A DNA stretch of 64,000 nucleotides from a virus (lineage: Duplodnaviria; Caudoviricetes), in the IMG/VR virus record IMGVR_UViG_2700989080_000001, positions 14,065 to 78,064 of that record; one strand, written 5' to 3'. Within the stretch, counting starts at the first letter, position 1. Each line of letters starts with the position of its first letter. The notes beneath the pieces were generated by a model. The model searched no databases. It was not told the DNA's origin and worked only from the letters and a program-made list of their open reading frames with translations. Made by a program: the position numbers and the translations under genes. This document shows positions 1,664 through 63,461 of the stretch, piece after piece.

Positions 1664-1679
1664 GGAAAGGTAATTTGCG

Positions 1680-3942: not shown

Positions 3943-3963
3943 GCTTTCGAGGGAGTCATTCCA

Positions 3964-5783: not shown

Positions 5784-5784
5784 G

Positions 5785-26077: not shown

Positions 26078-26662
26078 GTGGAGGAAACAAAACCAAGGTG
26101 GAATGCCGTTAAGCCCTGGAATCGTCATGGCTTAATTCTTACCGTCGTTGGTATTGCGTACATCCTCATCGGAGTCACTTATATTCTTGCCGAACCAAGT
26201 GAAGCCCGACAGGAAGCACTGAGTTTCGCTCTCAGCATCATGCCGTATGATTGGTGGGGTGTTGGGTTCGTTGTGGTGGGTATCATCTCCACCATGTCGT
26301 CTCGTTGGCCGTCGCTGCCTAGAACGTTGGGTTATTCAACGTTGACTGGTTGGTCGTCGGCTTGGGCCGGGTTTCATATCGTAGGCGGCCTATCGCAGCA
26401 CGCTACACATCTATCCTATGCGGCAGGTGGTTTGGCATGGGGGTTGATGGGGTTTCTTTGGTGGGCGATTAGCGGCTTAATTTGTCCACCGAAGGAAAGG
26501 GGGGTATGTGGACGCCCTGCCCCATTTCGTGAGCCTCGCTGTCGCTTTGATTGCGGCATTGTCCGCGTTAGCGACACAGCAGGCGTCATCGAAAGCAAGT
26601 CGGAAAGAGAAACAGGAAGCTTCCCGAGCCAGCATGGAGACGGAAGCGTACGAAAGAGCTAG
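26078..26662 (+). CDS. Multi-pass membrane protein (holin candidate)
   Basis: AAGGAGG RBS before GTG; about four hydrophobic helices; end of late module. Confidence 0.55.
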   Translation: MEETKPRWNAVKPWNRHGLILTVVGIAYILIGVTYILAEPSEARQEALSFALSIMPYDWWGVGFVVVGIISTMSSRWPSLPRTLGYSTLTGWSSAWAGFHIVGGLSQHATHLSYAAGGLAWGLMGFLWWAISGLICPPKERGVCGRPAPFREPRCRFDCGIVRVSDTAGVIESKSERETGSFPSQHGDGSVRKS

Positions 26663-26858: not shown

Positions 26859-26901
26859 TCGCAAAAATTACACAGCCTATAATGAGACCCCTATGAAAGG
26901 A
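26859..26901 (+). promoter_or_regulatory. Phage promoter + leader + RBS, copy 1
   Basis: TCGCA-N14-TATAAT-GAGACCCCTATGAAAGGA. Confidence 0.85.
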
Positions 26902-26907
26902 ACTGTT

Positions 26908-27207
26908 ATGTTCAACTCCAAGCCCTCTGACTCCAAGGTTGGACTCGAGAACGCCATCAATTCTCTGCTCGAAGAGATGTCACATTTGAATGGTGATTCC
27001 GAAGAATACGCTAAGATGACGGAACAGCTGGACGTGCTCTACAAGCTCAAGGAAGTCGACCACAAGGTCGAAGCCGGAAAGCGAGTGAGCGCTGACACGC
27101 TGGCCATCATCGCAGGCAACGTTCTCGGAATCGCCATGATCGTGGGACACGAACGAGTGAGCATTCTGACGTCGAAGGCCCTACCCTTGCTGATGAAGCT
27201 GAAGTAA
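26908..27207 (+). CDS. Hypothetical protein with C-terminal hydrophobic segment
   Basis: ATG after GAAAGGA. Confidence 0.75.
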   Translation: MFNSKPSDSKVGLENAINSLLEEMSHLNGDSEEYAKMTEQLDVLYKLKEVDHKVEAGKRVSADTLAIIAGNVLGIAMIVGHERVSILTSKALPLLMKLK

Positions 27208-27231
27208 CAAACACCCCCACAGGTGCCCCCG

Positions 27232-27285
27232 ACTGAGGAGGCTTGTAAGGACGAGATCCATATCCTTGCAAGCCTTCTCAGTTTT
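27232..27285 (+). terminator. Intrinsic terminator
   Basis: ACTGAGGAGGCTTGTAAGGA/TCCTTGCAAGCCTTCTCAGT stem + TTT. Confidence 0.75.
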
Positions 27286-27352
27286 CGTCGCATCTAAAAC
27301 ACGGCTTCTCAATTTTTCCCGGGGAGGAATTTTGGGATTAAGTCTTCAAGAA

Positions 27353-27395
27353 TCGCATATTTTACACACCCTATAATGAGACCCCTATGAAAGGA
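27353..27395 (+). promoter_or_regulatory. Phage promoter copy 2
   Basis: TCGCA-N14-TATAAT-GAGACCCCTATGAAAGGA. Confidence 0.85.
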
Positions 27396-27404
27396 AAGAT
27401 CACT

Positions 27405-27677
27405 ATGGAAACCCGTGCCTACTACTATGGTGACGGAACTGACAACGTCGTACAGTTGACAGAAGCTCAGGCTAACGCCAGTAACAAGGCCATGTTCTAC
27501 CCCGTGGAAGAAGAGAAGGACTCGACAGGAGAAACACAAATCCTGGTCAAGACCAATCTGACCCGCGAGGAGATCGTCCATTACAACGAAGCCGCAGACA
27601 TTCTGAACGTGTACCTCGAAACTCACACCGTCACATACAACGACATGGAGCAACCAATGCTTCGCCCAGTCAAGTAA
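27405..27677 (+). CDS. Hypothetical acidic protein
   Basis: Promoter/RBS upstream, hairpin downstream. Confidence 0.75.
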   Translation: METRAYYYGDGTDNVVQLTEAQANASNKAMFYPVEEEKDSTGETQILVKTNLTREEIVHYNEAADILNVYLETHTVTYNDMEQPMLRPVK

Positions 27678-27735
27678 GTCTCCGCCGCACTGAGATGCCA
27701 CCCAGGCATTTCAGTTTTCCTACAGAGGAGTTAAC

Positions 27736-27951
27736 GTGGTTGACAAGATATTCGCTGCTACGAACGTTATGTCGTCCTTCGCCGACCCAGAGTACTTGTT
27801 CGGAGTTTCTGTTGGCGTCGCCGCACTTCACCTATATTACAGAACGAAGTACAAAGCGATGCTGACCGCTCATGATCTGGATCGACTTCGTAAGGGTCTC
27901 CCAGTCAAGATCGATACTTCCCGCGGACCCATCTATATTCGTGAGGTTTAG
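27736..27951 (+). CDS. Small membrane protein
   Basis: GAGGAG RBS; one hydrophobic helix. Confidence 0.65.
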   Translation: MVDKIFAATNVMSSFADPEYLFGVSVGVAALHLYYRTKYKAMLTAHDLDRLRKGLPVKIDTSRGPIYIREV

Positions 27952-27954
27952 ACG

Positions 27955-27998
27955 TCGCACAGAATACACGCCCTATAATGAAACCCTCGACGAAAGGA
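27955..27998 (+). promoter_or_regulatory. Phage promoter copy 3
   Basis: TCGCA-N14-TATAAT-GAAACCCTCGACGAAAGGA. Confidence 0.85.
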
Positions 27999-28004
27999 CC
28001 AATC

Positions 28005-28178
28005 ATGAACGACAAGATTGCTGCCGTCAAGAATCACGTCAAGAAGCACCGCGCGAAGTATGCGGTTGCAGGAACGCTAGTCGTCTGCACCGTCATCCAT
28101 ATTCGCATCGTGAGCAACTTGAACAGGTTCCTCGACGACCACGATCTGATGGACATGTACTACACCAACGGAGAGTAA
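28005..28178 (+). CDS. Small membrane protein
   Basis: Cassette gene; one hydrophobic helix. Confidence 0.7.
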   Translation: MNDKIAAVKNHVKKHRAKYAVAGTLVVCTVIHIRIVSNLNRFLDDHDLMDMYYTNGE

Positions 28179-28226
28179 CAACGAACTGGAATGCCAATCT
28201 ACACACGGCATTTCAGTTTTTGCCTT

Positions 28227-28269
28227 TCGCAAGAATTACACGCCTTATAATGAGACCCCTACGAAAGGA
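28227..28269 (+). promoter_or_regulatory. Phage promoter copy 4
   Basis: TCGCA-N14-TATAAT-GAGACCCCTACGAAAGGA. Confidence 0.85.
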
Positions 28270-28277
28270 CGCCCATC

Positions 28278-28556
28278 ATGAACAACAAGATCGCTATCGC
28301 TGCCCTTGCTGTTGGAGCACTTGCCGTCGCTGGGATCGCCACAATCAACTGCTTGCAGATTACTCGCGAAGAGGAAGCCAAGCGTGCCGAGTTCAAACGA
28401 AATGAAGAACTCAACGTCCACGCCGTCACCCTTGCCGCGATGCGAATCAGCGAACGTTTGGAAGCTGGCGATCACTTCGCGTCGGTGAATGACCTGACAG
28501 ACAACTTCAACGAAGAGATCAAGTTCCAGAAGATTGCTGTCCGATTCGATAGCTGA
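28278..28556 (+). CDS. Small protein with N-terminal membrane anchor
   Basis: Cassette gene. Confidence 0.7.
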   Translation: MNNKIAIAALAVGALAVAGIATINCLQITREEEAKRAEFKRNEELNVHAVTLAAMRISERLEAGDHFASVNDLTDNFNEEIKFQKIAVRFDS

Positions 28557-28603
28557 ATCGAAAGCCTAAACCCACATGCTACACGGGTTTTAGGTTTTAC
28601 CAA

Positions 28604-28628
28604 TCGCAGAAAAAACACGCACTATAAT
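28604..28628 (+). promoter_or_regulatory. Phage promoter copy 5 (drives tRNA-like RNA)
   Basis: TCGCA-N14-TATAAT then AGAAGG. Confidence 0.85.
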
Positions 28629-28630
28629 AG

Positions 28631-28718
28631 AAGGAGAGACTCGTAGCTCAGTTGGAATGAGCGTCGTCAGCAATGACGAAGGTCGCAGGTTCGAGTCCTG
28701 CCGAGCTCTTCTTTTTTT
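28631..28718 (+). ncRNA. tRNA-like RNA lacking an anticodon loop
   Basis: D arm GCTC/GAGC, T arm GCAGG-TTCGAGT-CCTGC, anticodon arm TCGTCA-GCAA-TGACGA, extended acceptor-like stem, T-run, no CCA. Confidence 0.75.
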
Positions 28719-28722
28719 GCCT

Positions 28723-28765
28723 TCGCAGAAAAAACACGCACTATAATGAGACCCCTACGAAAGGA
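28723..28765 (+). promoter_or_regulatory. Phage promoter copy 6
   Basis: TCGCA-N14-TATAAT-GAGACCCCTACGAAAGGA. Confidence 0.85.
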
Positions 28766-28773
28766 AAAAGAAC

Positions 28774-28986
28774 ATGACGAACCAGAATGGTAACGAACTC
28801 TTCCTTAGCGAGAGCCTTCGAGAGAAGCTGCGCAATCTCAAAGACACCTCCGTTCCGCCGCAGATGGTAATCAATCCCGTCTACGTCAACGAAGCTGTCA
28901 GTGAGATCAACAAAGCCATTTCCGAGCTCCCCGCCAAAGAGAAGCGTCGTCCCTTCGGATTCATCACCGATCGATTCCGTAAGTAA
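28774..28986 (+). CDS. Hypothetical protein
   Basis: Cassette gene. Confidence 0.7.
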   Translation: MTNQNGNELFLSESLREKLRNLKDTSVPPQMVINPVYVNEAVSEINKAISELPAKEKRRPFGFITDRFRK

Positions 28987-29033
28987 AATCCAAAACCACA
29001 AGTCCAAGCTACACGGGCTTTTGGTTTTATCGA

Positions 29034-29058
29034 TCGCAGAAAAAACACGCACTATAAT
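29034..29058 (+). promoter_or_regulatory. Phage promoter copy 7 (drives structured RNA)
   Basis: TCGCA-N14-TATAAT. Confidence 0.85.
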
Positions 29059-29189
29059 GAGAAGGAAACTTCTTCTATAAGAGAAAGGCGAGACGCGAAT
29101 GCGTAGGTACGACACCTACCCGCCTGGCGCAAAGAACAGTAATCACGAGTTTTCAGCGGACCGTGAGCCCATGTTCTCTTATAGTTTTT
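29059..29189 (+). ncRNA. Putative multi-branched structured RNA
   Basis: No RBS/ORF; 11-bp closing stem CTATAAGAGAA/TTCTCTTATAG followed by T5; internal helices. Confidence 0.6.
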
Positions 29190-29288
29190 GCCTATATTTA
29201 CCTGAATTCGTCAGAGTGACGTTTTAGCCCATACCCCGGGTAGGGTCAAAACGTGGTTCTGTCCACTTCATGTATTTTTACGTAGGAA

Positions 29289-29331
29289 TCGCATTAAAAA
29301 CACACCATATAATGAGACCCCTACGAAAGGA
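29289..29331 (+). promoter_or_regulatory. Phage promoter copy 8
   Basis: TCGCA-N14-TATAAT-GAGACCCCTACGAAAGGA. Confidence 0.85.
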
Positions 29332-29336
29332 TTACC

Positions 29337-29588
29337 ATGATCAACGAGCTTAACACCATCAAGCAGATCGTTGTCAACAACCCCAACGTTGTCAAAGCCA
29401 CCGTTGCTGCCGGACTGTTCGTCGGAGCCGCTGTTGTACTCAAGCGTAAGAAGGATAAAGAAGTCCTTCTCGCCGGAGGTGCGCAGTGGATGACCGTCGA
29501 ACAGTACGAGAAGCATGTGGCCGACAAGGAAGGTGTTGACCGCAACGACCTCCTTGAGGACGAGTACGTCGTCATCGACCCCAAGTAA
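29337..29588 (+). CDS. Small membrane protein
   Basis: Cassette gene; one hydrophobic helix. Confidence 0.7.
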   Translation: MINELNTIKQIVVNNPNVVKATVAAGLFVGAAVVLKRKKDKEVLLAGGAQWMTVEQYEKHVADKEGVDRNDLLEDEYVVIDPK

Positions 29589-29653
29589 GATCCAGAACTG
29601 AACTCCCTAACACGGAGTTTCAGTTTTATTCTTTCACGGACAAAGGTCTCCAA

Positions 29654-29696
29654 CCGCATAAATTACACACCCTATAATGAGACCCCTATGAAAGGA
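29654..29696 (+). promoter_or_regulatory. Phage promoter copy 9
   Basis: CCGCA-N14-TATAAT-GAGACCCCTATGAAAGGA. Confidence 0.85.
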
Positions 29697-29702
29697 ACTA
29701 TC

Positions 29703-29966
29703 ATGGAAATCAAGACTGAGATCAACGCAAAGATCGATTCCACCAAGAAGTTCGTAAACGACCACAAAGTCGCTTTCGCCTATGGCGCAGGCCTTGTTGT
29801 CGGAGTCACCGGAATGGCCATTGGCATTAAGCAAATGAACGCTCTGGTGTTGACCCACAACAACCTCAACCACTTGCAGAACGGCGGCGTGATCGCTTAC
29901 GAAACGAAGTTGGGAACGATCCTCGCGTGGGTCAAACCCGATTCTATCGACATCCCCATCACGTAA
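29703..29966 (+). CDS. Small membrane protein
   Basis: Cassette gene; one hydrophobic helix. Confidence 0.7.
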   Translation: MEIKTEINAKIDSTKKFVNDHKVAFAYGAGLVVGVTGMAIGIKQMNALVLTHNNLNHLQNGGVIAYETKLGTILAWVKPDSIDIPIT

Positions 29967-30032
29967 GTCCACAAGCTTGAAGCTCCCTAACACGGAGTTT
30001 CAGCTTTGCCATATTCTCGACAAGGAGTTCTA

Positions 30033-30269
30033 GTGTCCAAGGTCCAATTGCTAAGACTGATCGGATCGCTGTTCATCATCGAGACCGCAATCCTCTTCAA
30101 GATCGCTTCGGATCTTCACGATCGGAATCGGGACTTCGAAACTTCGGATGCGCTTTTGAATTACTGTCTCGACAAGGTGAACGAAGGCGAGGGATTCAAC
30201 GATTTCGATCTTGTTGCGTTGAACACGCTTCTCGAGACGAATGGTGCTATATTTCACAAAGGCCTCTAA
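30033..30269 (+). CDS. Small membrane protein
   Basis: AAGGAG RBS before GTG. Confidence 0.6.
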   Translation: MSKVQLLRLIGSLFIIETAILFKIASDLHDRNRDFETSDALLNYCLDKVNEGEGFNDFDLVALNTLLETNGAIFHKGL

Positions 30270-30280
30270 CGCCACATAAA

Positions 30281-30323
30281 TCGCAGAAAAAACACACCCT
30301 ATAATGAGACCCCTATGAGAGGA
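30281..30323 (+). promoter_or_regulatory. Phage promoter copy 10
   Basis: TCGCA-N14-TATAAT-GAGACCCCTATGAGAGGA. Confidence 0.85.
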
Positions 30324-30329
30324 TATGCC

Positions 30330-30422
30330 ATGACCGCTATCGTTGCCCCCGTGCTCATCACCGCCTTCCTGGTGGCGCTGTACATGATCGCACCGAAGCT
30401 TGCTGGTTACATCACCAAGTAG
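30330..30422 (+). CDS. 30-aa hydrophobic peptide MTAIVAPVLITAFLVALYMIAPKLAGYITK
   Basis: Own promoter, RBS and terminator. Confidence 0.7.
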   Translation: MTAIVAPVLITAFLVALYMIAPKLAGYITK

Positions 30423-30505
30423 ATCGAAAAGCTTGAAGCTCCCTAACACGGAGTTTCAGCTTTCTGTTTTTCCTCTCACCCACACCTATCCGAAAGGCCA
30501 TATCT

Positions 30506-30766
30506 ATGCGAACCCTCGTCTCGAACCTCATCATCTCTCTCATCGACCGCCTCATCAATCTTATTGAGAAGACGGAGCGAAAGATCGATGATGTGGACAA
30601 AAAGCTCGCGGACCCTGTTCAGTCACGAGAGATGATCATGAACTCGTTCCTGTTCAAGGTTACCGTGCGCATCTTCAATGTCATCGACAGGATCAGTCCT
30701 AAGACAGGCCGATATTTGGTTCGAGTCATGGAGAAGTTCGTCGCGAAGCGCAAAGCAGCCAAGTAG
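30506..30766 (+). CDS. Hypothetical protein
   Basis: GAAAGG RBS. Confidence 0.65.
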   Translation: MRTLVSNLIISLIDRLINLIEKTERKIDDVDKKLADPVQSREMIMNSFLFKVTVRIFNVIDRISPKTGRYLVRVMEKFVAKRKAAK

Positions 30767-30805
30767 CACACACCCCGCCACACCTATATTTGAAGGACTA
30801 TCACC

Positions 30806-30985
30806 ATGCAGAAGGCAGCACTCATTTTGTCCGCTCTCAGCCTCGCCACGTCCGTCACGACGCTTGCCGTTATTCTCGGTGGCGTCAAGAAGCTGAACGA
30901 CGACATCCAGGACATCCGCAAGAAGACCAACGACGCCATCGGCAAGATGAAGGCTGCTCTCGTCAGTCTCGACTTCCGAATCTAA
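30806..30985 (+). CDS. Small membrane-anchored protein (59 aa)
   Basis: GAAGGA RBS; phage-like codon use; preferred over track ORF 30790..31173. Confidence 0.65.
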   Translation: MQKAALILSALSLATSVTTLAVILGGVKKLNDDIQDIRKKTNDAIGKMKAALVSLDFRI

Positions 30986-31016
30986 TTCTCAAACCAACAA
31001 CAAAAGGAGTATCGAC

Positions 31017-31301
31017 ATGTCCGCATTCAACGAATTCCTCCGTAACAGCCCGGAGTGGATTTTCTACATCAGCTTCGCCGGCCCTCTGCTCGTCCTGTCC
31101 ATCCTGGTTCCGATATTCGATCGTCGTCGGAAGAAGGTCAAGGCGATTCGTCAGGCGCACAAGACCGGCCTGATCCAGAAGCGCTCCGAGCGTCACCCTA
31201 ACCTCGATCGCTCCGGCATCATGGTCACGAAGGTGTCGACTTGTAAGGACGTCCCGTCCGACTACTTCGATCGCGTCAGCGAATTCCGCGCAAGCCTCTA
31301 A
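31017..31301 (+). CDS. Small membrane protein
   Basis: AAAGGAG RBS; one hydrophobic helix. Confidence 0.65.
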   Translation: MSAFNEFLRNSPEWIFYISFAGPLLVLSILVPIFDRRRKKVKAIRQAHKTGLIQKRSERHPNLDRSGIMVTKVSTCKDVPSDYFDRVSEFRASL

Positions 31302-31319
31302 GAAAGGTTCTCCTCTGCA

Positions 31320-31544
31320 ATGCTTTCAACCATCATCGACGTTCTGTGGGGCGTACTCATCGTCCTCTTGCTGATCGTCGGTCTCATCGTCGTGGTAGGA
31401 CTCATCACTGGTTGGATGGCTGTCGTGTGGACCTACGTCACGCGATTTGTCAATGCCTACCGAACGGCTTCTCGTGAGCTGGAAGCTGCCGAGGAACGCG
31501 AAAGACTGAACGAAAGCGACGATCCTTACGGCAAGCTCGACTGA
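31320..31544 (+). CDS. Small membrane protein
   Basis: Long hydrophobic N-terminus. Confidence 0.65.
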   Translation: MLSTIIDVLWGVLIVLLLIVGLIVVVGLITGWMAVVWTYVTRFVNAYRTASRELEAAEERERLNESDDPYGKLD

Positions 31545-31582
31545 CCCGATCTATCATCCATATCTGAACAACCTGGAGCATC

Positions 31583-32389
31583 ATGAACTTCTCTGTCCTG
31601 GCGAAGAACCTCGAACGATTCGCGGTCGCCAATTCCCCCGCAATCCTGACCGGTATCGCTGTCACCGGCACCGTCGCAACTGCTGTTCTCGCCGGTAAGG
31701 CGTCATTCAAGGCCGCGAAGATCATCGCCGGCGAAGAAGAGAAGCTCAAGGACCGCATGGTCGAGGTCTCTGACGAAGAGGAGGGCGACTCAGATTCTGA
31801 GTCGACTCTCGACACCAAGCAGAAGACCCTTCTGGTCTGGAAGCTCTATATTCCGGCAGCCAGCACCTGCGTCACGACCGTCATGGCCATGATCGCTGCC
31901 AATCAGATCGGTACCCGACGCACCGCTGCGATGGCGGCTGCATATTCTCTCTCGGAGAAGGCGTTCGGCGAGTACCGTGAGAAGATCGTCGAGAAGATGG
32001 GTCCGAAGAAGGAAGAGGCGGCTCGTACCGAGATCGCTCAGGAGCGTGTCGCACGCACTCCGGTTCCCTCGAACCAGGTTGTCATCTCCGGCAACGACGT
32101 TCTCTGCTTCGATCAGCACAGTGGTCGTTATTTCCACAGCACTATGGAAGAGCTGAAGAAGTCTCAGAACGACACGAACTACCGGATCATCAACGACGGC
32201 TACCAGAGCCTGAACGACTTCTATGAGCGAATCGGTCTCGACATGGTCCCGACCGGCGAAGAGCTCGGCTGGAACACAGACACGAAGTTCGAGCTATATT
32301 TCTCGACCGTGCTGTCTCCCGACCAGCGACCCTGCATCGCCATCGAATTCGTCAAGGGTCCCATCACCAACTACTACAAGGTCCACTGA
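31583..32389 (+). CDS. Conserved phage protein (DUF6353-like), paralog of 37450..38343
   Basis: NSP.IL.G...GTV.T.VLA; AAAY....AF.EYR; GY..LND.Y..GW. Confidence 0.7.
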   Translation: MNFSVLAKNLERFAVANSPAILTGIAVTGTVATAVLAGKASFKAAKIIAGEEEKLKDRMVEVSDEEEGDSDSESTLDTKQKTLLVWKLYIPAASTCVTTVMAMIAANQIGTRRTAAMAAAYSLSEKAFGEYREKIVEKMGPKKEEAARTEIAQERVARTPVPSNQVVISGNDVLCFDQHSGRYFHSTMEELKKSQNDTNYRIINDGYQSLNDFYERIGLDMVPTGEELGWNTDTKFELYFSTVLSPDQRPCIAIEFVKGPITNYYKVH

Positions 32390-32425
32390 CCACCATCATA
32401 TTTACAAGTTAGGGGAGGATCTACC

Positions 32426-32680
32426 ATGCACCACAAAGAAGATCGTGAATTCACCTATGAGATGGGCGTGGATGAGCCTATCAACCCCGACCCGGATATT
32501 GCCGGTCGCATGGTGGAGAAGGCGGTCAGCAAGTGTCAGTACGGCTGCAAGCTCTACGAGCACCCGAGCGCACATGTCATCGTGCTCTCGCACAACTCGT
32601 CCTACGGTTGCAAACGCACCAAGGACGATATTCTGAGTGACTTCACCAAGAACCGTCACAAGGAGCCCTCCGATGCCTGA
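32426..32680 (+). CDS. Cys/His-containing hypothetical protein
   Basis: GGAGG RBS; CQYGC..HNSSYGC. Confidence 0.65.
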   Translation: MHHKEDREFTYEMGVDEPINPDPDIAGRMVEKAVSKCQYGCKLYEHPSAHVIVLSHNSSYGCKRTKDDILSDFTKNRHKEPSDA

Positions 32681-32873
32681 GCGCGAGTATTGGATGGTTC
32701 CGCTCAGTGAGATCGTTCCGAAGGACACCTGGAGTCGACTTCTCGTCACGGTCTCGGGGTTCTTCACTGATCTTCTGTTGGTCGACGGTAGCTACGAGAA
32801 GATCTATGTCATCACTGAAGAAGTACTTCCGACTCAGGACGATATTCTGACCAAGGCGTTGGTCGATGCCTGA
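32673..32873 (+). CDS. Hypothetical protein, tandem family member 1
   Basis: AAGGAG RBS; MPEREYWMVP. Confidence 0.6.
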   Translation: MPEREYWMVPLSEIVPKDTWSRLLVTVSGFFTDLLLVDGSYEKIYVITEEVLPTQDDILTKALVDA

Positions 32874-33105
32874 CCAGATGACCGTCACCCTCAAAGAGCT
32901 CTTCCCCGAATCTGTGTGGGAGGAGCTCTTTCGTAGGGCGGCTAAACACAAAGCCGCTTACGCCTCGCATATTGTCGTCACCTCGTCCGGAGAAGTCAAG
33001 GAGTTGATCACCACTCCGGATTGGACCTGGTACGGTTCTCCGATTTGGGTCAACGCGAATGCCAACCAACTTTCTATAGGTATCGAAGGAGTTTCTGATG
33101 TGTAA
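32866..33105 (+). CDS. Hypothetical protein, tandem family member 2
   Basis: Translationally coupled. Confidence 0.6.
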   Translation: MPDQMTVTLKELFPESVWEELFRRAAKHKAAYASHIVVTSSGEVKELITTPDWTWYGSPIWVNANANQLSIGIEGVSDV

Positions 33106-33484
33106 TTATCCCGGCCCGATGATGGTTTCCATCGGAGACAGCGTTCCCGAAGAGACCTGGAATCGGATCAAGCTCCAGTGCGCGCTCAACTTGTACGGAC
33201 GGATGATCCCCGTCGTTCAGGAAGGTGTGCGAGGCGTCGGTAACGCATTTTCCGCGATGGCGAAGGCTGTCCGGAGCGTCGACTTCGGGCCCGTTGCGAA
33301 GAAGCTGGAATCTTTGAAGATTCCGTACAACGTAGACGAATCTCTCCACATGCGGGGTTTCGACATCAACAGCGACATGATCGAGTACGACGGTATTCCG
33401 CCGATCGACATGGATGACTATATCTTCGACGAGGGCTACAGCTACAGCGACATCGATGGAATCCGAGGAGACACCCATGCCTGA
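33098..33484 (+). CDS. Hypothetical protein, tandem family member 3
   Basis: AAGGAG RBS. Confidence 0.6.
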   Translation: MCNYPGPMMVSIGDSVPEETWNRIKLQCALNLYGRMIPVVQEGVRGVGNAFSAMAKAVRSVDFGPVAKKLESLKIPYNVDESLHMRGFDINSDMIEYDGIPPIDMDDYIFDEGYSYSDIDGIRGDTHA

Positions 33485-33590
33485 GCGTGAGTACTGGATG
33501 ATCCCCATTGGTGATCGCATCTCCAAGGATGTTAAGGACGTCATCGGAATGCGGGCGCTGAAGAACTTCGTATATTCCGAGGGGTCGTGA
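33477..33590 (+). CDS. Short protein, tandem family member 4 (MPEREYWMIP)
   Basis: GAGGAG RBS; N-terminus nearly identical to 32673. Confidence 0.55.
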   Translation: MPEREYWMIPIGDRISKDVKDVIGMRALKNFVYSEGS

Positions 33591-34006
33591 TGTGTGATAC
33601 AGGAGAATGCCGGCCCTGCCGACTGGAAGATCGTCTGACCGATCGTGCGATGGGGACTACCCGAGAGTATATTGCCTTCGTGAAGCTTCCGACCGTCGAG
33701 CAGAACATGGCGAACAGAAAGATCCACGGTCTGTCCCTTATTTCCTCGACCAACTCAAAGGTCAAGCGACAGACGCCTCCTCCCGGAAGTCTCTCTTCCA
33801 AAGAGAACATCGCAGCTCGTAAGAAACGAGAGTCTGCCAACCGTAAAGCAAACCGAGAGCTTCGTGATGGTCGTCTATATTCTCTAGGGTGTCCAGAGCA
33901 CGGTACGCCTTCCGGCTACAAGCATTGGTACTGTCGGTGTATCCCTTGTACGAACGCGCACACCAAGGACCACAACGCTTCCTACCACAGGTCTAAGCTG
34001 GCGTGA
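33587..34006 (+). CDS. Zn-finger protein (HGTPSGY..W.CRCIPC)
   Basis: His/Cys motif shared with 34181..34435. Confidence 0.65.
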   Translation: MMCDTGECRPCRLEDRLTDRAMGTTREYIAFVKLPTVEQNMANRKIHGLSLISSTNSKVKRQTPPPGSLSSKENIAARKKRESANRKANRELRDGRLYSLGCPEHGTPSGYKHWYCRCIPCTNAHTKDHNASYHRSKLA

Positions 34007-34188
34007 AGCGAATCATATCCTGGTGGCGTGAGTCTCGAAAGTGGAGACACTGCCCACACCGACGTTTGCGTGGCGTCTACGGAGACTGGGTCTATCAGAT
34101 GCCGAACCAAAGGCGTCTTATTTGTCTAGATTGCGGAAACTCTCTGGACGGACCAGTTTCCCTTGCTGAGGAGCAAAACGATGACTGA
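34003..34188 (+). CDS. Small Zn-binding protein
   Basis: CPH...CLDC; GTGA overlap. Confidence 0.55.
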   Translation: MKRIISWWRESRKWRHCPHRRLRGVYGDWVYQMPNQRRLICLDCGNSLDGPVSLAEEQNDD

Positions 34189-34435
34189 TGCGGAACCCCC
34201 AATCGTCGGAACGGCAGTTACACTCGAAGACAAAGAGCGCTGGCGCAAAAACCACAAGAACAAGCTCGCGATTCGCAAGATGAATCGGAAGATGATCAAC
34301 GGTAGACTCACGTCGACTCTTCTTCAAGAGCATGGTACACCTTCCGGATACAACAACTGGTTCTGTCGATGCATCCCATGCACCCAGGCATACAACGGCC
34401 GCAAGCGTGACAACCGCAAAAAGCGCCGTCGATAG
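34181..34435 (+). CDS. Basic Zn-finger protein
   Basis: HGTPSGYNNWFCRCIPC; GAGGAG RBS. Confidence 0.65.
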   Translation: MTDAEPPIVGTAVTLEDKERWRKNHKNKLAIRKMNRKMINGRLTSTLLQEHGTPSGYNNWFCRCIPCTQAYNGRKRDNRKKRRR

Positions 34436-34469
34436 CCTCAAAGACTTATCTTCCCCAGAGACGTCTGCA

Positions 34470-34512
34470 TCGCAGAAAAAACACGACCTATAATGAGACC
34501 CCTATGAAAGGA
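34470..34512 (+). promoter_or_regulatory. Phage promoter copy 11
   Basis: TCGCA-N14-TATAAT-GAGACCCCTATGAAAGGA. Confidence 0.85.
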
Positions 34513-34518
34513 ACAACA

Positions 34519-34755
34519 ATGTCTGACCAGAACGAGAACATCGTCATCGAAGAAGACGCAACCCCCGTTCGTTTCCGTCGCCTCAAGAAGGTCCTGAGCA
34601 AGATCGAAGAAAACTCAGCCATCATCGCCATCGCAACTGCGACCGCGGTGAGTGCTGCTGGAATCATCGCGCTCAATCGACTCGACAAGAAGACGACGGA
34701 GACGATCGAGGTTGCCGAACCCAAGGTGATCGAGACCGCTCCCACGGAAGACTGA
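34519..34755 (+). CDS. Small membrane protein
   Basis: Cassette gene followed by terminator at ~34775-34821. Confidence 0.7.
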   Translation: MSDQNENIVIEEDATPVRFRRLKKVLSKIEENSAIIAIATATAVSAAGIIALNRLDKKTTETIEVAEPKVIETAPTED

Positions 34756-34853
34756 TATTCCCCCACAGAGATCGAAAAAGAGAAAGGCTTAGTAAAGAAA
34801 TTTACTAGGTCTTTCCTTTTTGCTTTCACGGACAAAGAGGATTGACGCCACAA

Positions 34854-35375
34854 ATGGATCATCAAACATTCAACGTATATTTGGAAGAGAAGTTCGATCA
34901 CATCCGATCGGTTCTCGGAACCAAGGCTGCCGAGTACGTTCCGAACGAAGGCGGCTCTCGTTTCCACAACTTCGATGTTGCGGCGGCATTCAACAACGAG
35001 TCTCCCGAAAAGGCTCTCTGGGGAATGCTGACCAAGCACCTCGTGAGCATCGCAGACATGGTGAAAGACGACCCGACCGACCACTCTATGGCTGTGTGGG
35101 ACGAGAAGATCGGCGACGCTCTCAACTATCTTCTGCTGCTCAACGGCATGGTGAAGGATCACCACGAAACGAAGAATCTGGTGCAGTTCCACTCCGGTCT
35201 CGTGAATGCCGTTCTTCCTCCCGGCACGAACGTGATCGACACCCACCTGAGGCTGGAGAAGGACGGAAGCGTCACGAAGCTGGCCGGACACCTGTCGGGT
35301 TTGGCGAGTGGTGGAATGGAACAGCCTCGTACGGACGGACCCGAGCGCGTCAAGTTCTGCCGCAACAACCACTGA
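34854..35375 (+). CDS. All-alpha NTP-pyrophosphatase-like (MazG/DUF1599-type) protein
   Basis: K..EY...HNF...KH...EKIGDALNY pattern. Confidence 0.55.
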   Translation: MDHQTFNVYLEEKFDHIRSVLGTKAAEYVPNEGGSRFHNFDVAAAFNNESPEKALWGMLTKHLVSIADMVKDDPTDHSMAVWDEKIGDALNYLLLLNGMVKDHHETKNLVQFHSGLVNAVLPPGTNVIDTHLRLEKDGSVTKLAGHLSGLASGGMEQPRTDGPERVKFCRNNH

Positions 35376-35428
35376 CTCGGTCATATTTCTGACCATCGTA
35401 AGCAACACCACACAAGGAGCACAAAGTA

Positions 35429-36061: not shown

Positions 36062-36068
36062 TCTATAT

Positions 36069-36187
36069 TTGAGCGAGAGGGGTTTGGCAAGGGTCCTTTG
36101 TAGGGGTCTCGCCCTAGTCCGGATGCCAAACTTAAACGACAGCCGTAGCGCTGTGGGGAAGCAGCAAACATGCGCCCTCGATCTCAA
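36069..36187 (+). ncRNA. Putative structured RNA displaying the antisense of the promoter leader/RBS
   Basis: GTTTGGCA/TGCCAAAC stem enclosing GGTCCTTTGTAGGGGTCTC. Confidence 0.5.
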
Positions 36188-36206
36188 TCATATTCTCGTG
36201 CCTGAT

Positions 36207-60740: not shown

Positions 60741-63461
60741 GTGCTGATCAACGAAGATGACTACTTGGCACACTACGGTATTCTGCGTCGTTCGGGCAGG
60801 TATCCTTGGGGATCTGGTGGAACTCCCGAACAGAACCATCGCTCGTTCATGGGCATGGTAGGAGCTTTGAAGGCTGAAGGAATGTCTGATGCCGACATCG
60901 CTAAGGGTTTCGGTATCTCCACTCGAGACTATCTCGCTCTCAAGTCGATCGCTGTCAACGAGATCAAGGCAGCCAACCGCTCTCGTGCGGAACTTCTTCG
61001 TGCTACCGGCATGTCTCACAAAGCAATCGCTGAGGAGATGGGCCTTGCTGGTGAGTCTTCGGTTCGGGCTTTGTTGGCTCCCGGTGCTGCCATGCGAGCT
61101 AATCAGAATCAAGCCGTTGCCGATCTTCTCAAGGATCAGATCAAAGATGGCGGGTATCTCGACATTGGGGCCGGCAACGAGCTCTATGTTGGCATGTCTC
61201 GCACTCAGTTCGACACCGTGGTAGCAGGTCTTCGTAACGAAGGCTATGTGGTTCATCCGGTTCAGGTCGATCAGGTTGGAACCAACACCAAGACTCTGAT
61301 CAAGGTTCTGGCTCCTGAAGGAACCGAGTACAAGGACATCGTCACTAATCCGGAAGCGATCAAGTCTATCGCAGTCAAGCTGAAGGATGGCGAGATCGAA
61401 CACGTCCGTCCTCCTGAGATGCTGGATTCTAAGCGAGTCAAGGTCGTCTACGATGAGGATGGAGGTTCTCAGGCTGATGGTACGATGTACATTCGTCCGG
61501 GAGTCAGTGATCTCGATCTTGGTGGTGCACAGTATGCTCAGGTACGAATTGCTGTCGATGGCACGCACTACCTCAAGGGAATGGCTGTCTACAAGAATGA
61601 CCTTCCTCCTGGTGTAGATGTTGTCTTCAACACCAACAAGACCAACACCGGCAACAAGCTCGATGCTTTGAAGAAGATGAACCGTCTTCCCGAGCTCGAT
61701 GCAGATGGCAAGCCTGTCAAGGATGCTAAGGGTGATGTCGTCTTCTCTGACAAGATCGACATGTCGAATCCTTTCGGTGCAACCATCAAGCCTGGTGGTC
61801 AGCGTGGGGTTCTGAATGTTGTGAATGAGGAAGGCGACTGGAGTAAGTGGTCTAAGAACCTTCCTTCGCAGATGCTTTCCAAGCAGCAGCCTACGATTGC
61901 CAAGGAACAGCTGGACCGACTCTTCAACGACAAGAACTCCGAGCTCAATGAGATCATGGCTCTGACCAACCCTGCGGTCAAGAAGAAGTTGCTTCAGTCC
62001 TATGCCGATGGTGTGGATGCTGATGCTGTACATCTTCAGGCAGCACACATGCCTCGACAGGCTACACAGGTAATCCTTCCGATTCCTGTGGACAAGATGC
62101 GAGACACAGAGATCTATGCGCCCAACTTCCGTGATGGAGAACGGGTTGCTCTGGTTCGCTTCCCTCATGGTGGAACCTTCGAGATCCCTGAGCTCACAGT
62201 CAACAACCGCAATCCTGAAGCTAGGAAACTTCTAGGGACCAATGCTAAGGATGCCGTCGGCATCAATGCCCGTGTTGCTGAGCGTCTGTCTGGTGCGGAC
62301 TTCGATGGCGATACTGTCCTTGTGATTCCCAATGATCGTGGGAAGATCAAGAGCTCGCCTGCTCTCGAGGGTCTTAAGGACTTCAATCCTCAGAAGAGGT
62401 ACCCTGCTTACGAGGGTATGAAGCCTATGACTGCTAAGCAGAAGCAGCAGGAGATGGGTAGTGTCTCCAACCTCATCGCCGACATGACGATCAAGGGAGC
62501 CACCAACTCTGAGCTCGCCGCTGCTGTCCGTCACTCTATGGTTGTGATTGATGCTGAGAAACATAAGCTCAATTACAAACAGTCTGCGATTGACAACAAC
62601 ATCGTGGGTCTCAAGAAGAAGTACCAGGCTCGACCTGATGGTTCTCCTGGTGGTGCTGCAACGCTGATCTCTCGGAGTACTTCTGAGGTTCGTGTCAACG
62701 AGCGCAAGATCGGGTACAAGATCAACCCCGATACTGGTGAGAAGATCTTCACCGAGACAGGTAAGGGCTACACCAAGACTAAGGTCAACCCTAAGACTGG
62801 TGTGGTTACGGAGAAGTTCATCCCCCGTACTCAGAAGTCTACGAAGGGTGCTGAAGCTAAGGATGCCCATGAGCTTTCTTCGGGTACTCGAATGGAACAG
62901 ATCTATGCTGATCATTCGAATCGTCTGAAGGCTTTGGGTAACTCTGCTCGGAAGACTTTGATGGCTACGAAGTCGACGCCCTATTCCGACTCTGCTCGTA
63001 AGGTGTACGCCTCTGAAGTAAAGGCACTGGATGCGAAGCTTAACATCGCACTCAAGAATGCACCCCGAGAAAGACAAGCCCAGCTCATAGCCAATGCCAC
63101 CATCAAACAGAAGCGTGATGCTAATCCAGGGATGGAGCATGACGAACTGAAGAAGGTGAAAGCTAAAGCATTGGTTACTGCTCGTGCTCGAACAGGCGCA
63201 AGCAAAGAGCTGATCAACATCACTGACAGTGAGTGGGAGGCCATCCAAGCTGGTGCAGTGAGCACATCCAAGCTCACTAAGATCCTTGACAACACCAACC
63301 TTGATCGAGTCAAGGAGCTGGCCACACCTCGCAAGAACACAGTGATGACTGACCTCAAACAGCAGCGTGCTCGTCAGCTTCTCGCAAGCGGGCGCACTCA
63401 GTCTGAGGTTGCCGACATCCTTGGCGTTCCCCTATCCACCCTCTCGTCTAGCTTGCAGTAA
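60741..63461 (+). CDS. Putative single-chain double-psi-beta-barrel RNA polymerase with HYG tag and HTH domains
   Basis: YLAHYG; QVR....YLKGM; LVRFP; LSGADFDGD; HSMVVIDAEK; two N-terminal and one C-terminal HTH. Confidence 0.75.
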   Translation: MLINEDDYLAHYGILRRSGRYPWGSGGTPEQNHRSFMGMVGALKAEGMSDADIAKGFGISTRDYLALKSIAVNEIKAANRSRAELLRATGMSHKAIAEEMGLAGESSVRALLAPGAAMRANQNQAVADLLKDQIKDGGYLDIGAGNELYVGMSRTQFDTVVAGLRNEGYVVHPVQVDQVGTNTKTLIKVLAPEGTEYKDIVTNPEAIKSIAVKLKDGEIEHVRPPEMLDSKRVKVVYDEDGGSQADGTMYIRPGVSDLDLGGAQYAQVRIAVDGTHYLKGMAVYKNDLPPGVDVVFNTNKTNTGNKLDALKKMNRLPELDADGKPVKDAKGDVVFSDKIDMSNPFGATIKPGGQRGVLNVVNEEGDWSKWSKNLPSQMLSKQQPTIAKEQLDRLFNDKNSELNEIMALTNPAVKKKLLQSYADGVDADAVHLQAAHMPRQATQVILPIPVDKMRDTEIYAPNFRDGERVALVRFPHGGTFEIPELTVNNRNPEARKLLGTNAKDAVGINARVAERLSGADFDGDTVLVIPNDRGKIKSSPALEGLKDFNPQKRYPAYEGMKPMTAKQKQQEMGSVSNLIADMTIKGATNSELAAAVRHSMVVIDAEKHKLNYKQSAIDNNIVGLKKKYQARPDGSPGGAATLISRSTSEVRVNERKIGYKINPDTGEKIFTETGKGYTKTKVNPKTGVVTEKFIPRTQKSTKGAEAKDAHELSSGTRMEQIYADHSNRLKALGNSARKTLMATKSTPYSDSARKVYASEVKALDAKLNIALKNAPRERQAQLIANATIKQKRDANPGMEHDELKKVKAKALVTARARTGASKELINITDSEWEAIQAGAVSTSKLTKILDNTNLDRVKELATPRKNTVMTDLKQQRARQLLASGRTQSEVADILGVPLSTLSSSLQ

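What the first reader, a model, noticed from the sequence alone, without database searches (positions are those of the whole stretch)
28631..28718. Anticodon-less tRNA mimic with its own promoter
Seen: canonical T8-A9, D arm (GCTC-AGTTGGAAT-GAGC), variable loop AGGTC and T arm (GCAGG-TTCGAGT-CCTGC). The anticodon arm is instead a perfect 6-bp stem capped by a GCAA (GNRA) tetraloop. The acceptor helix extends to about 12 bp with one bulged A (AAGGAGAG-A-CTCG / CGAGCTCTTCTT) and runs into a T tract with no CCA. The clean tetraloop argues against random decay. Inference: a non-decoding elbow mimic, for example a decoy for tRNA-targeting defence nucleases or a Y-RNA-like scaffold.
Basis: partly seen in the sequence, partly recalled or inferred. 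Interest (0 to 1): 0.8.

Follow-up and report, generated by a model that had tools for sequence, protein, structure and literature searches.

The report
Sealed tRNA look-alike RNA in phages
This phage carries a small gene whose RNA folds like a transfer RNA but has its codon-reading loop and probably both ends sealed shut; related phages of very different bacteria keep the same design, so it is most likely a working tRNA mimic whose job has not been tested.

Summary
Window 28631-28718 folds exactly as described: tRNA D arm, T arm and variable loop, a 6-bp stem capped by GCAA instead of an anticodon loop, a 12-bp acceptor-type helix with one bulged A, then a T tract. An exact copy of a repeated phage promoter lies in front.

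It is not a private deletion. The window is a 78-kb relative of Rhodococcus phage ReqiPepy6, whose record annotates the same element as "tRNA-OTHER".

I found 13 versions in phages that share a YonO-like single-subunit RNA polymerase (window 60741-63458). They include Gordonia phage Zeph and Lactococcus phages P078 and P1046, where the element is unannotated. All stems covary: 95% of cells are paired against 64% in shuffles, and 15 of 19 pairs show compensatory changes. None of the 13 has a 7-base anticodon loop. Seven have GNRA caps, one has UUCG, and the rest have other short loops.

So this is a conserved, non-decoding, tRNA-shaped small RNA. The mechanism is inferred only. The favoured reading is an uncleavable tRNA decoy for a tRNA-binding host factor. 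Expression, RNA ends and partner are untested.

Earlier notes of this scan describe similar objects on other DNA. I found no description of the family in the papers searched.

The parts
28565..28599 (+). Terminator-like hairpin plus T run that closes the upstream gene (ORF 28278-28556)
   Evidence: Read from the sequence. The stem arms and T run are largely kept in ReqiPepy6 although the upstream genes are unrelated (alignment A1). Not flagged by the consensus scan.
28604..28628 (+). Promoter copy TCGCAGAAAAAACACGCAC-TATAAT in front of the RNA gene
   Evidence: Exact 24-mer found 5 times in the window, 0 in shuffles. The same architecture (TCGC, ACA 5 nt before a TATAAT-like box, purine start) lies in front of all 13 family members. 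No sigma-70-type match here in the consensus scan.
28631..28643 (+). 5' strand of the closing (acceptor-type) helix: outer AAGGAGAG, bulged A28639, inner CTCG
   Evidence: Fold. G28636A with C28708T is a compensatory pair in ReqiPepy6 and in the metagenome contigs. Inner pairs covary in the family. The specificity of the outer 8 nt is modest.
28644..28663 (+). U8-A9, D arm (GCTC-AGTTGGAAT-GAGC) and G26
   Evidence: D stem 100% paired in 13 sequences; GG of the D loop present in 12 of 13.
28664..28679 (+). Sealed 'anticodon' arm: 6-bp stem TCGTCA/TGACGA capped by GCAA
   Evidence: All 6 pairs show changes on both sides across the family, 93% of cells paired. Caps are GNRA in 7 of 13, UUCG in 1, other 3-6-base loops in 5; none is a 7-base anticodon loop.
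28680..28701 (+). Variable loop AGGTC and T arm GCAGG-TTCGAGT-CCTGC
   Evidence: GGTTCGA..CC is present in 13 of 13; T stem 100% paired, with 3 of 5 pairs compensatory.
28702..28718 (+). 3' strand of the closing helix (CGAG-CTCTTCTT) running into the T tract; no CCA; probable terminator
   Evidence: The terminator-like scan flags the tail CTTCTTTTTT. The same helix-then-T-tract ending is seen in all relatives examined.
28723..28747 (+). Next promoter copy, starting the following unit (ORF 28774-28986)
   Evidence: The unit 28724-29034 is missing in ReqiPepy6 and in the contigs of runs X3 and X4, which join 28707 to 29034.
60741..63458 (+). 906-aa YonO-like single-subunit RNA polymerase, the likely reader of the promoter (association, not proof)
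   Evidence: Matches phrog_4291, which PHROGs names 'RNA-dependent RNA polymerase', at E = 0. Carries the ADFDGD motif and weak HTH matches at both ends. Full-length homologues occur in contigs that carry the RNA: 47-51% identity in G402, G403 and G404, 38-55% in the other IMG/VR loci that include the G409, G412, G415 and G418 contigs. It is described as the signature gene of this phage supercluster in bioRxiv 10.1101/842583 (passages read).

Best explanation
The element is a gene for a conserved, non-decoding, tRNA-shaped small RNA. It forms a transcription unit of its own: a phage-specific promoter, about 85 nt of RNA, and a T-tract terminator. The RNA keeps the parts that make a tRNA L-shaped and recognisable: U8/A9, the D loop GG, the T loop and the acceptor/T stack. 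Its two working ends are closed. The anticodon arm is a short stem with a stable cap (GCAA here). The 5' and 3' ends pair in a long helix with no free CCA end. It therefore cannot read codons and is unlikely to be charged with an amino acid. Inferred mechanism: it occupies a protein that recognises tRNA by body and elbow, most likely a host tRNA-targeting defence nuclease or toxin, or a tRNA-processing enzyme. It would offer no anticodon loop or 3' tail to cut or modify, so it would act as an uncleavable decoy or sponge. Shown: the structure, its conservation and covariation, the lack of an anticodon loop, the unit architecture, and the link with the YonO-like polymerase clade. Inferred: transcription, the exact ends, binding, and the decoy role. 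My odds: about 0.9 that it is a functional non-decoding RNA, and about 0.4 for the decoy mechanism (the figure given as confidence).
For: The structure is real. The core 28637-28707 is identical in ReqiPepy6 while the genes on both sides are unrelated, and the one acceptor difference is compensatory. Contigs of three public runs from two studies carry the same allele. It is the only Rfam-tRNA match in this genome and in ReqiPepy6.

There are 13 family members from at least 9 phage lineages, with polymerase identity falling to 36-39%. In them, 95.3% of cells are paired against 64.4 +/- 2.1% in shuffles (0 of 500 as high) and 33-48% when the partners are slid. Compensatory changes occur in 15 of 19 pairs, and in 6 of 6 pairs of the sealed arm (the alignment was fitted to the model, so it leans towards it).

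Caps: GNRA in 7 of 13, UUCG in 1, and no 7-base loop in any of the 13. Gordonia phage Zeph keeps GCAA on a completely different 4-bp stem.

Leader and trailer of the same RNA pair better than those of different members: -11.1 against -5.95 +/- 3.2 kcal/mol, n = 130.

A wider census looked at well-formed tRNA-like genes with a 17-nt arm. N-GNRA-N loops were 11 of 46 distinct arms in viral contigs and 0 of 46 in a bacterial sample (Fisher p = 5e-4).

tRNA-targeting defences, and phage tRNAs that evade them, are well documented (listing; passages of PMC10264068 and PMC13056530).
Against: There are no expression data: no RNA run holds the stretch. The start site and 3' end are unmapped. The outer 8 nt of the helix pair only modestly better with their own trailer than with others (-5.85 against -4.06 +/- 2.96 kcal/mol; 5 of 12 members not specific). 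A sigma-70 start rule would leave most of them out of the RNA.

Only 7 of 16 polymerase-bearing records that are at least 90% complete have a detectable copy. Three of seven named supercluster isolates tested lack one: Secretariat, Uzumaki and TieDye. So the element is dispensable or replaceable.

A family kept in phages of Actinobacteria and of Lactococcus argues against one host-specific nuclease as the target. It fits a universal tRNA-binding protein or a conserved phage protein equally well. No partner, defence system or binding was tested. The caps are not uniformly GNRA.
Confidence: 0.4

Rival explanations
1. It is a cofactor or scaffold for a phage protein conserved in the supercluster. 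Examples would be a regulator, primer or assembly partner of the YonO-like polymerase or of the replication proteins, with the tRNA shape used as a handle.
For: The RNA has been found only together with this polymerase clade within the family defined here, across host phyla. It sits directly behind the clade's own promoter type in 13 of 13 members. In SPbeta the one mapped YonO start site lies in front of an unannotated non-coding RNA (PMC5467207, passage read).
Against: About half of the polymerase-bearing genomes lack a detectable copy. My model finds nothing in SPbeta. No binding was tested. The parts conserved are those that cellular tRNA-binding proteins read.
Confidence: 0.15
2. It is mainly a transcription or processing module. 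In this reading it is a structured terminator or insulator between promoter-gene cassettes, or a tRNA-like punctuation mark cut by RNase P/RNase Z, and the RNA product has no role of its own.
For: The closing helix runs straight into a T tract in every member. The region is built of promoter-gene-terminator cassettes that are gained and lost: the unit 28724-29034 is absent in relatives.
Against: The unit has its own promoter right after another terminator, so there is nothing upstream to terminate or punctuate. Ordinary terminators in the same region are simple hairpins. Selection keeps the D loop GG, the T loop and a capped arm, which a terminator does not need.
Confidence: 0.15
3. After trimming by RNase P and a 3' nuclease and addition of CCA, it is charged by a synthetase that ignores the anticodon. 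It then donates an amino acid outside translation.
For: It keeps a full tRNA top half. CCA is often not encoded in Actinobacteria (recalled). Non-ribosomal uses of tRNA-like RNAs exist, for example the B. cereus tRNA-Other mentioned in PMC5389517 (passage read). An unrelated phage family with a CGCAAG cap does encode CCA.
Against: The acceptor region has a bulge and is extended by leader-trailer pairing. Its sequence, the discriminator base and the bulge size all differ between members, so no identity set is conserved. There is no G3:U70. No synthetase or transferase gene was found among 61 ORFs.
Confidence: 0.08
4. It is a Y-RNA-like scaffold that tethers a Ro/Rsr protein and an exonuclease.
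For: The paired ends with a bulge and the tRNA-like module recall Y RNAs (recalled). A weak sub-threshold YrlA match lies beside another phage's tRNA-like gene (L065, 37 bits against a gathering score of 69).
Against: There is no YrlA match in the window. No TROVE protein was found among 61 ORFs. In YrlA the ends lie in the arm that corresponds to the anticodon stem, the opposite of this RNA (recalled).
Confidence: 0.04
5. It is a dead tRNA gene (relic) kept only because the two Rhodococcus phages diverged recently.
For: Between the window and ReqiPepy6 alone, the neighbouring promoters are also almost unchanged, so identity of the core is weak evidence by itself.
Against: Covariation across 13 members from distant phages, with the sealed arm rebuilt on different sequences. 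The unit keeps its own promoter and terminator in every lineage.
Confidence: 0.03
6. It is a working decoder: a tRNA with a 6-base loop, or tRNA-Ala(AGC) as ARAGORN calls it.
For: ARAGORN call. Rfam score above threshold.
Against: The Ala reading needs C33, a 3-bp D stem and no base 26, and G3:U70 is missing (identity rule recalled). Relatives have tri-, tetra- and UUCG loops that cannot present an anticodon.
Confidence: 0.01

Closest known systems
Phage-encoded tRNAs (Rfam RF00005), including those that evade or neutralise tRNA-targeting defences (T5 tRNAs against PARIS and retron effectors)
   Same: A phage-borne gene with a tRNA cloverleaf that scores above the Rfam threshold. It sits in the same arms-race setting in which phages alter anticodon loops to escape nucleases (PMC10264068 and PMC13056530 passages; PMC11464382 and PMC11555353 seen in the listing only).
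   Different: Those tRNAs still decode and replace depleted host tRNAs. This RNA has no anticodon loop, no encoded CCA and paired ends, so it cannot replace a tRNA. If it acts in defence it must do so by binding.
YrlA / bacterial Y RNAs (Rfam RF02553)
   Same: A non-coding RNA with a tRNA-like D/T elbow module and a long stem formed by its ends (recalled from Chen et al. 2014, not read here).
   Different: No model match, no Ro gene, and the opposite topology: here the ends close the acceptor side and the anticodon side is capped.
mascRNA-type tRNA-like small RNAs of eukaryotes (recalled, not read here)
   Same: Cloverleaf-like, lacks a conserved anticodon loop, non-decoding.
   Different: mascRNA is cut out of a long transcript by RNase P/Z and receives CCA. 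This one is a unit of its own with promoter and terminator, in phages.
tRNA-Other of Bacillus cereus and irregular allo-tRNA-like genes
   Same: Bacterial tRNA-like genes thought not to serve normal translation (PMC5389517 and PMC7609411 passages).
   Different: Those keep an anticodon loop and a chargeable end. They are not phage units and have no sealed arm.
tRNA-like structures at the 3' ends of plant RNA virus genomes
   Same: Viral mimicry of the tRNA shape to engage host tRNA-binding enzymes (PMC4810235 passages).
   Different: Those are part of the genome RNA, built with pseudoknots, end in CCA and are aminoacylated.
Similar objects noted earlier in this scan (e1-6002280, e1-5405581, e1-4424238)
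   Same: Promoter-driven tRNA look-alikes with a GNRA cap instead of an anticodon loop, in a sheep-gut phage family, a phiKZ-type phage and CPR bacteria (AI notes, not checked by me).
   Different: Other genomes and lineages. I did not test whether any belongs to the polymerase-linked family described here.

Membership tests
Decoding tRNA (Rfam RF00005) | Cloverleaf with D and T arms and the tertiary-contact bases; score at or above the gathering threshold | tested here: met
   37.4 bits against a threshold of 29. U8, A14, G15/C48, G18G19, T54-A58, C56 and G53-C61 read.
Decoding tRNA (Rfam RF00005) | 5-bp anticodon stem with a 7-base loop carrying U33 and a 3-base anticodon | tested here: not met
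   6 loop bases in the Rfam alignment. The MFE fold is 6 bp plus GCAA. 0 of 13 relatives have a 7-base loop.
Decoding tRNA (Rfam RF00005) | Regular 7-bp acceptor stem with a free discriminator and CCA end | tested here: not met
   Bulged A28639; two non-standard pairs in the Rfam register. Leader and trailer are complementary up to the T tract and no CCA is encoded. Whether CCA is added later is untested.
YrlA / Y RNA (RF02553) | Match to the covariance model | tested here: not met
   No match at E <= 10 in 28400-28950 nor at gathering score in the whole window.
YrlA / Y RNA (RF02553) | Ro/Rsr (TROVE) gene in the same genome or locus | tested here: not met
   Pfam scan of 49 + 12 ORFs covering the whole 78-kb genome at the ORF sizes used found no TROVE. 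The host genome was not examined.
Anti-defence phage tRNA (replacement type) | Can decode the codons of the depleted host tRNA | tested here: not met
   No anticodon loop.
Anti-defence phage tRNA / tRNA decoy | Relieves a tRNA-targeting defence system | not testable with these tools
   Needs infection assays.
tmRNA | tRNA-like domain plus tag reading frame | tested here: not met
   ARAGORN finds no tmRNA. The Rfam gathering scan finds only tRNA.
Sealed tRNA-like RNA of YonO-like-polymerase phages (family defined here) | TATAAT-like box with ACA 5 nt upstream, purine-rich start, D/T elbow, capped short arm in place of the anticodon arm, closing helix followed by a T tract | tested here: met
   Window. 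13 of 13 have the box and the purine start, 12 of 13 have ACA, 10 of 13 have TCGC. Structure counts. Model R1 scores the window at 103 bits, but the window helped to build the model.
Intrinsic terminator | Stable stem directly followed by a U tract that ends transcription | tested here: inconclusive
   The consensus scan flags the tail CTTCTTTTTT after a local hairpin. The long-range closing helix precedes the T tract. No 3'-end data.

The most novel reading that the evidence does not exclude
This would be a phage-made, nuclease-proof tRNA dummy, sealed at the anticodon and at the 3' end. It would be transcribed by the phage's own YonO-like polymerase and kept for a very long time in phages of Actinobacteria and Firmicutes. 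It would disarm tRNA-directed immunity, or another universal tRNA-binding factor, by binding alone. Together with the other GNRA-capped tRNA look-alikes enriched in viral contigs, it would define a general class of RNA anti-defence decoys.
Probability: 0.25. Interest if true: 0.9.

Novelty: new variant of a known kind. Interest (0 to 1): 0.7.

Why it matters
Phage tRNAs and bacterial tRNA-cutting defences are an active field, but the known counter-measures are working replacement tRNAs or repair enzymes. A conserved RNA that keeps only the recognisable body of a tRNA and closes both vulnerable ends would be a different principle: an RNA decoy.

It is present, unannotated, in culturable and harmless systems: Lactococcus lactis phages P078 and P1046, and Gordonia phage Zeph. 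The idea can therefore be tested directly.

The same analysis gives a candidate promoter for the YonO-like single-subunit RNA polymerases of this phage supercluster. The passages of the YonO paper I read call that polymerase's promoter undetermined (PMC5467207).

For annotation, such genes are currently called tRNA-OTHER, tRNA-Ala or nothing at all.

Tried and rejected
Expression: no RNA holder is listed for window 28200-29200. The four DNA runs laid are contigs only.

Papers: Summer et al. 2011 (the ReqiPepy6/ReqiPoco6 paper) is not held. I could not see what it says about the tRNA-OTHER, so an earlier remark on it may exist there.

tRNA-Cys origin (U73 plus GCA with U33 lost): not supported. 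The nearest tRNAs in 41 genomes of the order of genome G001 (a Corynebacterium MAG by its record title) are Arg, Trp and Phe at 75-81% identity. The nearest phage tRNAs are Streptomyces phage tRNA-Phe at 81.7%. Relatives carry other caps. The parent isotype is indeterminate.

Sigma-70 promoter: the consensus scan finds none at 28604-28628.

Minor tail protein homologues in five contigs with GNRA-capped tRNA-like genes: none. The link between those contigs turned out to be the polymerase instead.

SPbeta (home of YonO): no match to model R1 at E <= 1, which shows little.

A Corynebacterium chromosomal look-alike after leuCD was not found in 400 other genomes of its order with a strict pattern. 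I do not claim it as a relative.

A mistyped pattern found nothing and was corrected.

MAFFT alone could not align the irregular acceptor region, so model R1 pairs only 4 of its base pairs.

Full report
What is there

U8-A9 is followed by a D arm GCTC-AGTTGGAAT-GAGC and G26. Then comes a perfect 6-bp stem TCGTCA/TGACGA closed by GCAA, the variable loop AGGTC and a T arm GCAGG-TTCGAGT-CCTGC. The 5' stretch AAGGAGAG-A-CTCG pairs with CGAG-CTCTTCTT, with one G.T pair and a bulged A28639, and runs into a T tract without CCA.

The minimum-free-energy fold is this structure (-35.4 kcal/mol, z = -3.24). Rfam's tRNA model matches 28637-28709 at 37.4 bits (threshold 29) and shows 6 instead of 7 loop bases. 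ARAGORN's 'tRNA-Ala (agc)' needs a shifted stem, C33 and a 3-bp D stem, and the alanine identity pair G3:U70 (recalled rule) is absent. I treat that call as an artefact. All bases that build the tRNA elbow are present. Nothing else in Rfam matches, and YrlA does not match even at E <= 10.

Setting

The window is bases 14065-78064 of a 78,064-bp virus record. It is related to Rhodococcus phage ReqiPepy6: 84% DNA identity over the parts that align, and 90.5% for a tail protein. The genome length equals the one I recall for ReqiPoco6, but no tool named the record.

The element is a unit of its own:
- The upstream ORF ends at 28556 and is followed by a hairpin plus T run.
- Next comes an exact copy of a 24-mer, CGCAGAAAAAACACGCACTATAAT (28605-28628).
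- Then comes the RNA gene, a T tract, and the same 24-mer again (28724-28747).

The 24-mer occurs 5 times in the window against 0 in shuffles. A looser form occurs 10 times, all on the + strand at 26866-36231, and the copies I read are each followed by a short leader and an ORF.

Not a private deletion

ReqiPepy6 holds the same element, annotated 'tRNA-OTHER'. In the alignment the genes on both sides are unrelated, yet the cassette terminator-promoter-RNA-T tract-promoter is kept. The core 28637-28707 has no change. The one difference inside the acceptor helix (G28636A with C28708T) is compensatory in the bulged register.

Contigs of three public runs from two studies carry the ReqiPepy6-type allele with no insertion or deletion in the loop. 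In runs X3 and X4 the contigs also join 28707 to 29034, so the window's unit 28724-29034 (promoter, 70-aa ORF, terminator) is an extra cassette.

The element is the only Rfam-tRNA match in either Rhodococcus phage.

A family

I first scanned IMG/VR for tRNA-like genes with a 17-nt instead of an 18-nt anticodon arm. The pattern was GAGC-N17-AGGTC-N3-GGTTCGANTCC. It gave 90 matches with 73 distinct arms. Of those, 14 had GNRA at loop positions 2-5, against 2 and 7 in the two other registers.

I then kept only matches with a D stem and at least 4 arm pairs. N-GNRA-N loops were 11 of 46 distinct arms in viral contigs and 0 of 46 in a bacterial sample (Fisher p = 5e-4).

Three of these viral lineages showed the same unit design as the window: a TATAAT-like box directly upstream, a purine-rich leader complementary to a pyrimidine-rich trailer, then a T tract.

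The link between them is a gene. Window 60741-63458 encodes a 906-aa protein of phrog_4291, which PHROGs names 'RNA-dependent RNA polymerase' (E = 0). It carries the ADFDGD metal-binding motif and weak helix-turn-helix matches at both ends. Full-length homologues lie in those contigs at 47-51% identity and in ReqiPepy6 at 92%.

A preprint describes this protein as a YonO-like polymerase. It calls it the signature of a supercluster of Streptomyces, Arthrobacter, Gordonia and Rhodococcus (ReqiPepy6/ReqiPoco6) phages together with Lactococcus and Faecalibacterium phages, and reports no predicted tRNA genes in cluster BI (bioRxiv 10.1101/842583, passages read). I found the protein in 50 IMG/VR loci and in 248 phage records.

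Searching polymerase-bearing records

I searched these records in three ways: with Rfam tRNA, with a T-loop-plus-T-tract pattern, and with a covariance model of my own (R1, built from five sequences).
- Of the 16 polymerase-bearing records that are at least 90% complete, 7 have a full-length sealed tRNA-like unit (G000, G402, G403, G404, G409, G412 with two copies, G418). Nine have none detected. Four of those nine carry only ordinary tRNAs (G416: Met and Lys; G427, G429, G430: Gln).
- Of seven named isolates of the supercluster, four have it: ReqiPepy6, Gordonia phage Zeph (33435-33521, in the gap between genes 40 and 41), Lactococcus phage P078 (24013-24097, between P078_0025 and 0026) and P1046 (30498-30583). 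Three do not: Gordonia phage Secretariat, Arthrobacter phage Uzumaki and Streptomyces phage TieDye.

Structure counts

In the 13-sequence alignment made with R1:
- 95.3% of cells form standard pairs, against 64.4 +/- 2.1% in shuffles (0 of 500 as high) and 33-48% when the partners are slid.
- 15 of 19 pairs have changes on both sides.
- The sealed arm has 6 of 6 pairs compensatory, with 93% of cells paired. The D and T stems are 100% paired.

The alignment was fitted to the model, which favours the structure, but the slid controls use the same alignment.

The caps (for the letters) are:
- GCAA in the window, ReqiPepy6 and Zeph (in Zeph on a different 4-bp stem, CCGC/GCGG)
- GAAA in G404 and G409, and U-GAAA-U in G402
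- GGAA in L076
- UUCG in G412b
- UAAU in G415 and UUAU in P078
- the triloops AUU (G412a) and UUA (G418)
- AUAAUA in P1046

None of the 13 has a 7-base loop. GGTTCGA..CC is invariant, and the D-loop GG is present in 12 of 13. What is selected is therefore a closed, capped arm plus an intact elbow, not an anticodon.

Promoter and ends

All 13 units have a TATAAT-like box. ACA lies 5 nt upstream in 12, TCGC lies 19 nt upstream in 10, and a purine comes first after the box in all 13. This is kept between phages with 53% and with 30-40% G+C.

The sigma-70 consensus scan does not flag the site. In G404 a TTGAC abuts the box, which is not a sigma-70 spacing. Together with the shared polymerase, this suggests that the motif is the polymerase's own promoter. 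That is an inference. The YonO paper states that the YonO promoter was undetermined, and that its mapped start lies upstream of an unannotated non-coding RNA (PMC5467207, passages). My model finds nothing in SPbeta.

A sigma-70 rule would put +1 at about 28634-28636, which is tRNA position -2 to +1 and would leave most of the outer helix untranscribed. A start right after the box would include it.
- Whole leaders pair with their own trailers much better than with those of other members: -11.1 against -5.95 +/- 3.2 kcal/mol, with 9 of 12 ranking near the top.
- For the first 8 nt alone the difference is small (-5.85 against -4.06 +/- 2.96), and 5 of 12 are not specific.
- In G412a, G418 and G402 there is no usable acceptor helix unless the first bases after the box are transcribed.

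I conclude that the ends are probably paired, but this needs mapping.

What it does

It cannot decode. A charged role is unlikely: the helix has a bulge of varying size, no conserved discriminator or identity pairs, no CCA, and a paired 3' strand.

The genome encodes no RNA ligase, polynucleotide kinase, CCA enzyme, synthetase, Ro protein or integrase among the 61 ORFs scanned. The only RNA-end domain is a weak 2H phosphoesterase match at window 47-1660.

The parts kept are those by which proteins recognise tRNA as a shape. The most economical mechanism is therefore binding: a tRNA dummy that offers no loop or tail to cut. The natural candidates are tRNA-targeting defence nucleases or toxins, which are widespread, or universal tRNA-processing enzymes. 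A conserved phage protein such as the polymerase is the main rival.

The presence in phages of two bacterial phyla, and the patchy distribution, both fit an accessory counter-measure. They do not prove one.

Comparison and novelty

It is a tRNA relative by Rfam score but fails two defining features of a decoding tRNA. It is not a YrlA, a tmRNA or a replacement-type anti-defence tRNA.

I found no description of phage tRNA-like genes with capped anticodon arms in eight full-text searches or in the passages I read. The listing for the P078 genome announcement (PMC4110766) shows zero uses of 'tRNA'. The 2011 paper on these Rhodococcus phages could not be read.

The ReqiPepy6 record shows that annotators saw an odd tRNA. 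Earlier notes of this scan report similar GNRA-capped look-alikes in a sheep-gut phage family, a phiKZ-type phage and CPR bacteria (unchecked AI notes). The kind of object has therefore been seen by the scan before, on other DNA.

New here are the family with covariation, its tie to the YonO-like-polymerase supercluster and promoter, and its presence in named, culturable phages.

Noticed in passing
window 26866-36231 (10 sites; exact copies at 28605, 28724, 29035): A repeated promoter, TCGC-N7-ACA-N5-TATAAT followed by purines, is shared with phages of low G+C hosts (G404, P078, P1046) and with Gordonia phage Zeph. It is a candidate promoter for the YonO-like polymerase and is not flagged as sigma-70 type.
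   Followed up: partly
window 60741-63458: A 906-aa YonO-like single-subunit RNA polymerase (ADFDGD motif, weak HTH matches at both ends). Most phage records annotate it as a 'helix-turn-helix DNA binding protein' or as hypothetical.
   Followed up: partly
window 47-7890: Seven consecutive ORFs each carry the 25-aa DUF7211 motif. The first (47-1660) also has a weak N-terminal 2H phosphoesterase/LigT-like domain (29 bits), a fold used in RNA-end healing and in cyclic-nucleotide anti-defence enzymes (the latter recalled).
   Followed up: no
window 28724-29034: A whole promoter-ORF(70 aa)-terminator cassette that ReqiPepy6 and the contigs of runs X3 and X4 lack. The ORF has no tblastn match in 50,697 phage records. 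Cassettes seem to be swapped at the promoter repeats.
   Followed up: partly
L226 9486-9578 (Corynebacterium sp. MAG, just after leuC-leuD): A chromosomal tRNA-like gene with a perfect 14-bp closing helix, a 6-bp arm capped by AGCAA and a T5 tract. A strict pattern did not find it in 400 other genomes of the order.
   Followed up: partly
L100-L105 (six IMG/VR contigs, two of them over 230 kb): Another phage tRNA-like family with the arm YTCAC-CGCAAG-GTGAA and an encoded CCA. It always lies about 230 nt upstream of tRNA-Asp(GTC), and its acceptor and T stems covary between two subgroups.
   Followed up: partly
L119, L122, L131, L140, L157, L165, L168, L187, L203, L207 (Mesorhizobium and related genomes): A conserved bacterial tRNA-like gene family with the arm CCGGA-TTTGGG-TCCGG (6-base loop), followed by CACCACGGATAGC.
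   Followed up: no
L351 (G402 26383-26501), L350 (G418 59909-59980), L051 1-110: Further small promoter-to-T-tract units in related phages. They have paired ends and, in two cases, a T arm but no full cloverleaf, so these phages may encode several such small RNAs.
   Followed up: no
L374 115-11351 (first 14 kb of the genome, outside the window): Six ORFs begin with the Mtd_N domain and carry varied C-terminal parts (beta-helix, depolymerase, GDSL lipase, lectin). This looks like a battery of receptor-binding or depolymerase proteins.
   Followed up: no
window 31583-32386 and 37450-38340: Two paralogous DUF6353 proteins (E about 1e-88 and 1e-82) flank the small-gene region.
   Followed up: no
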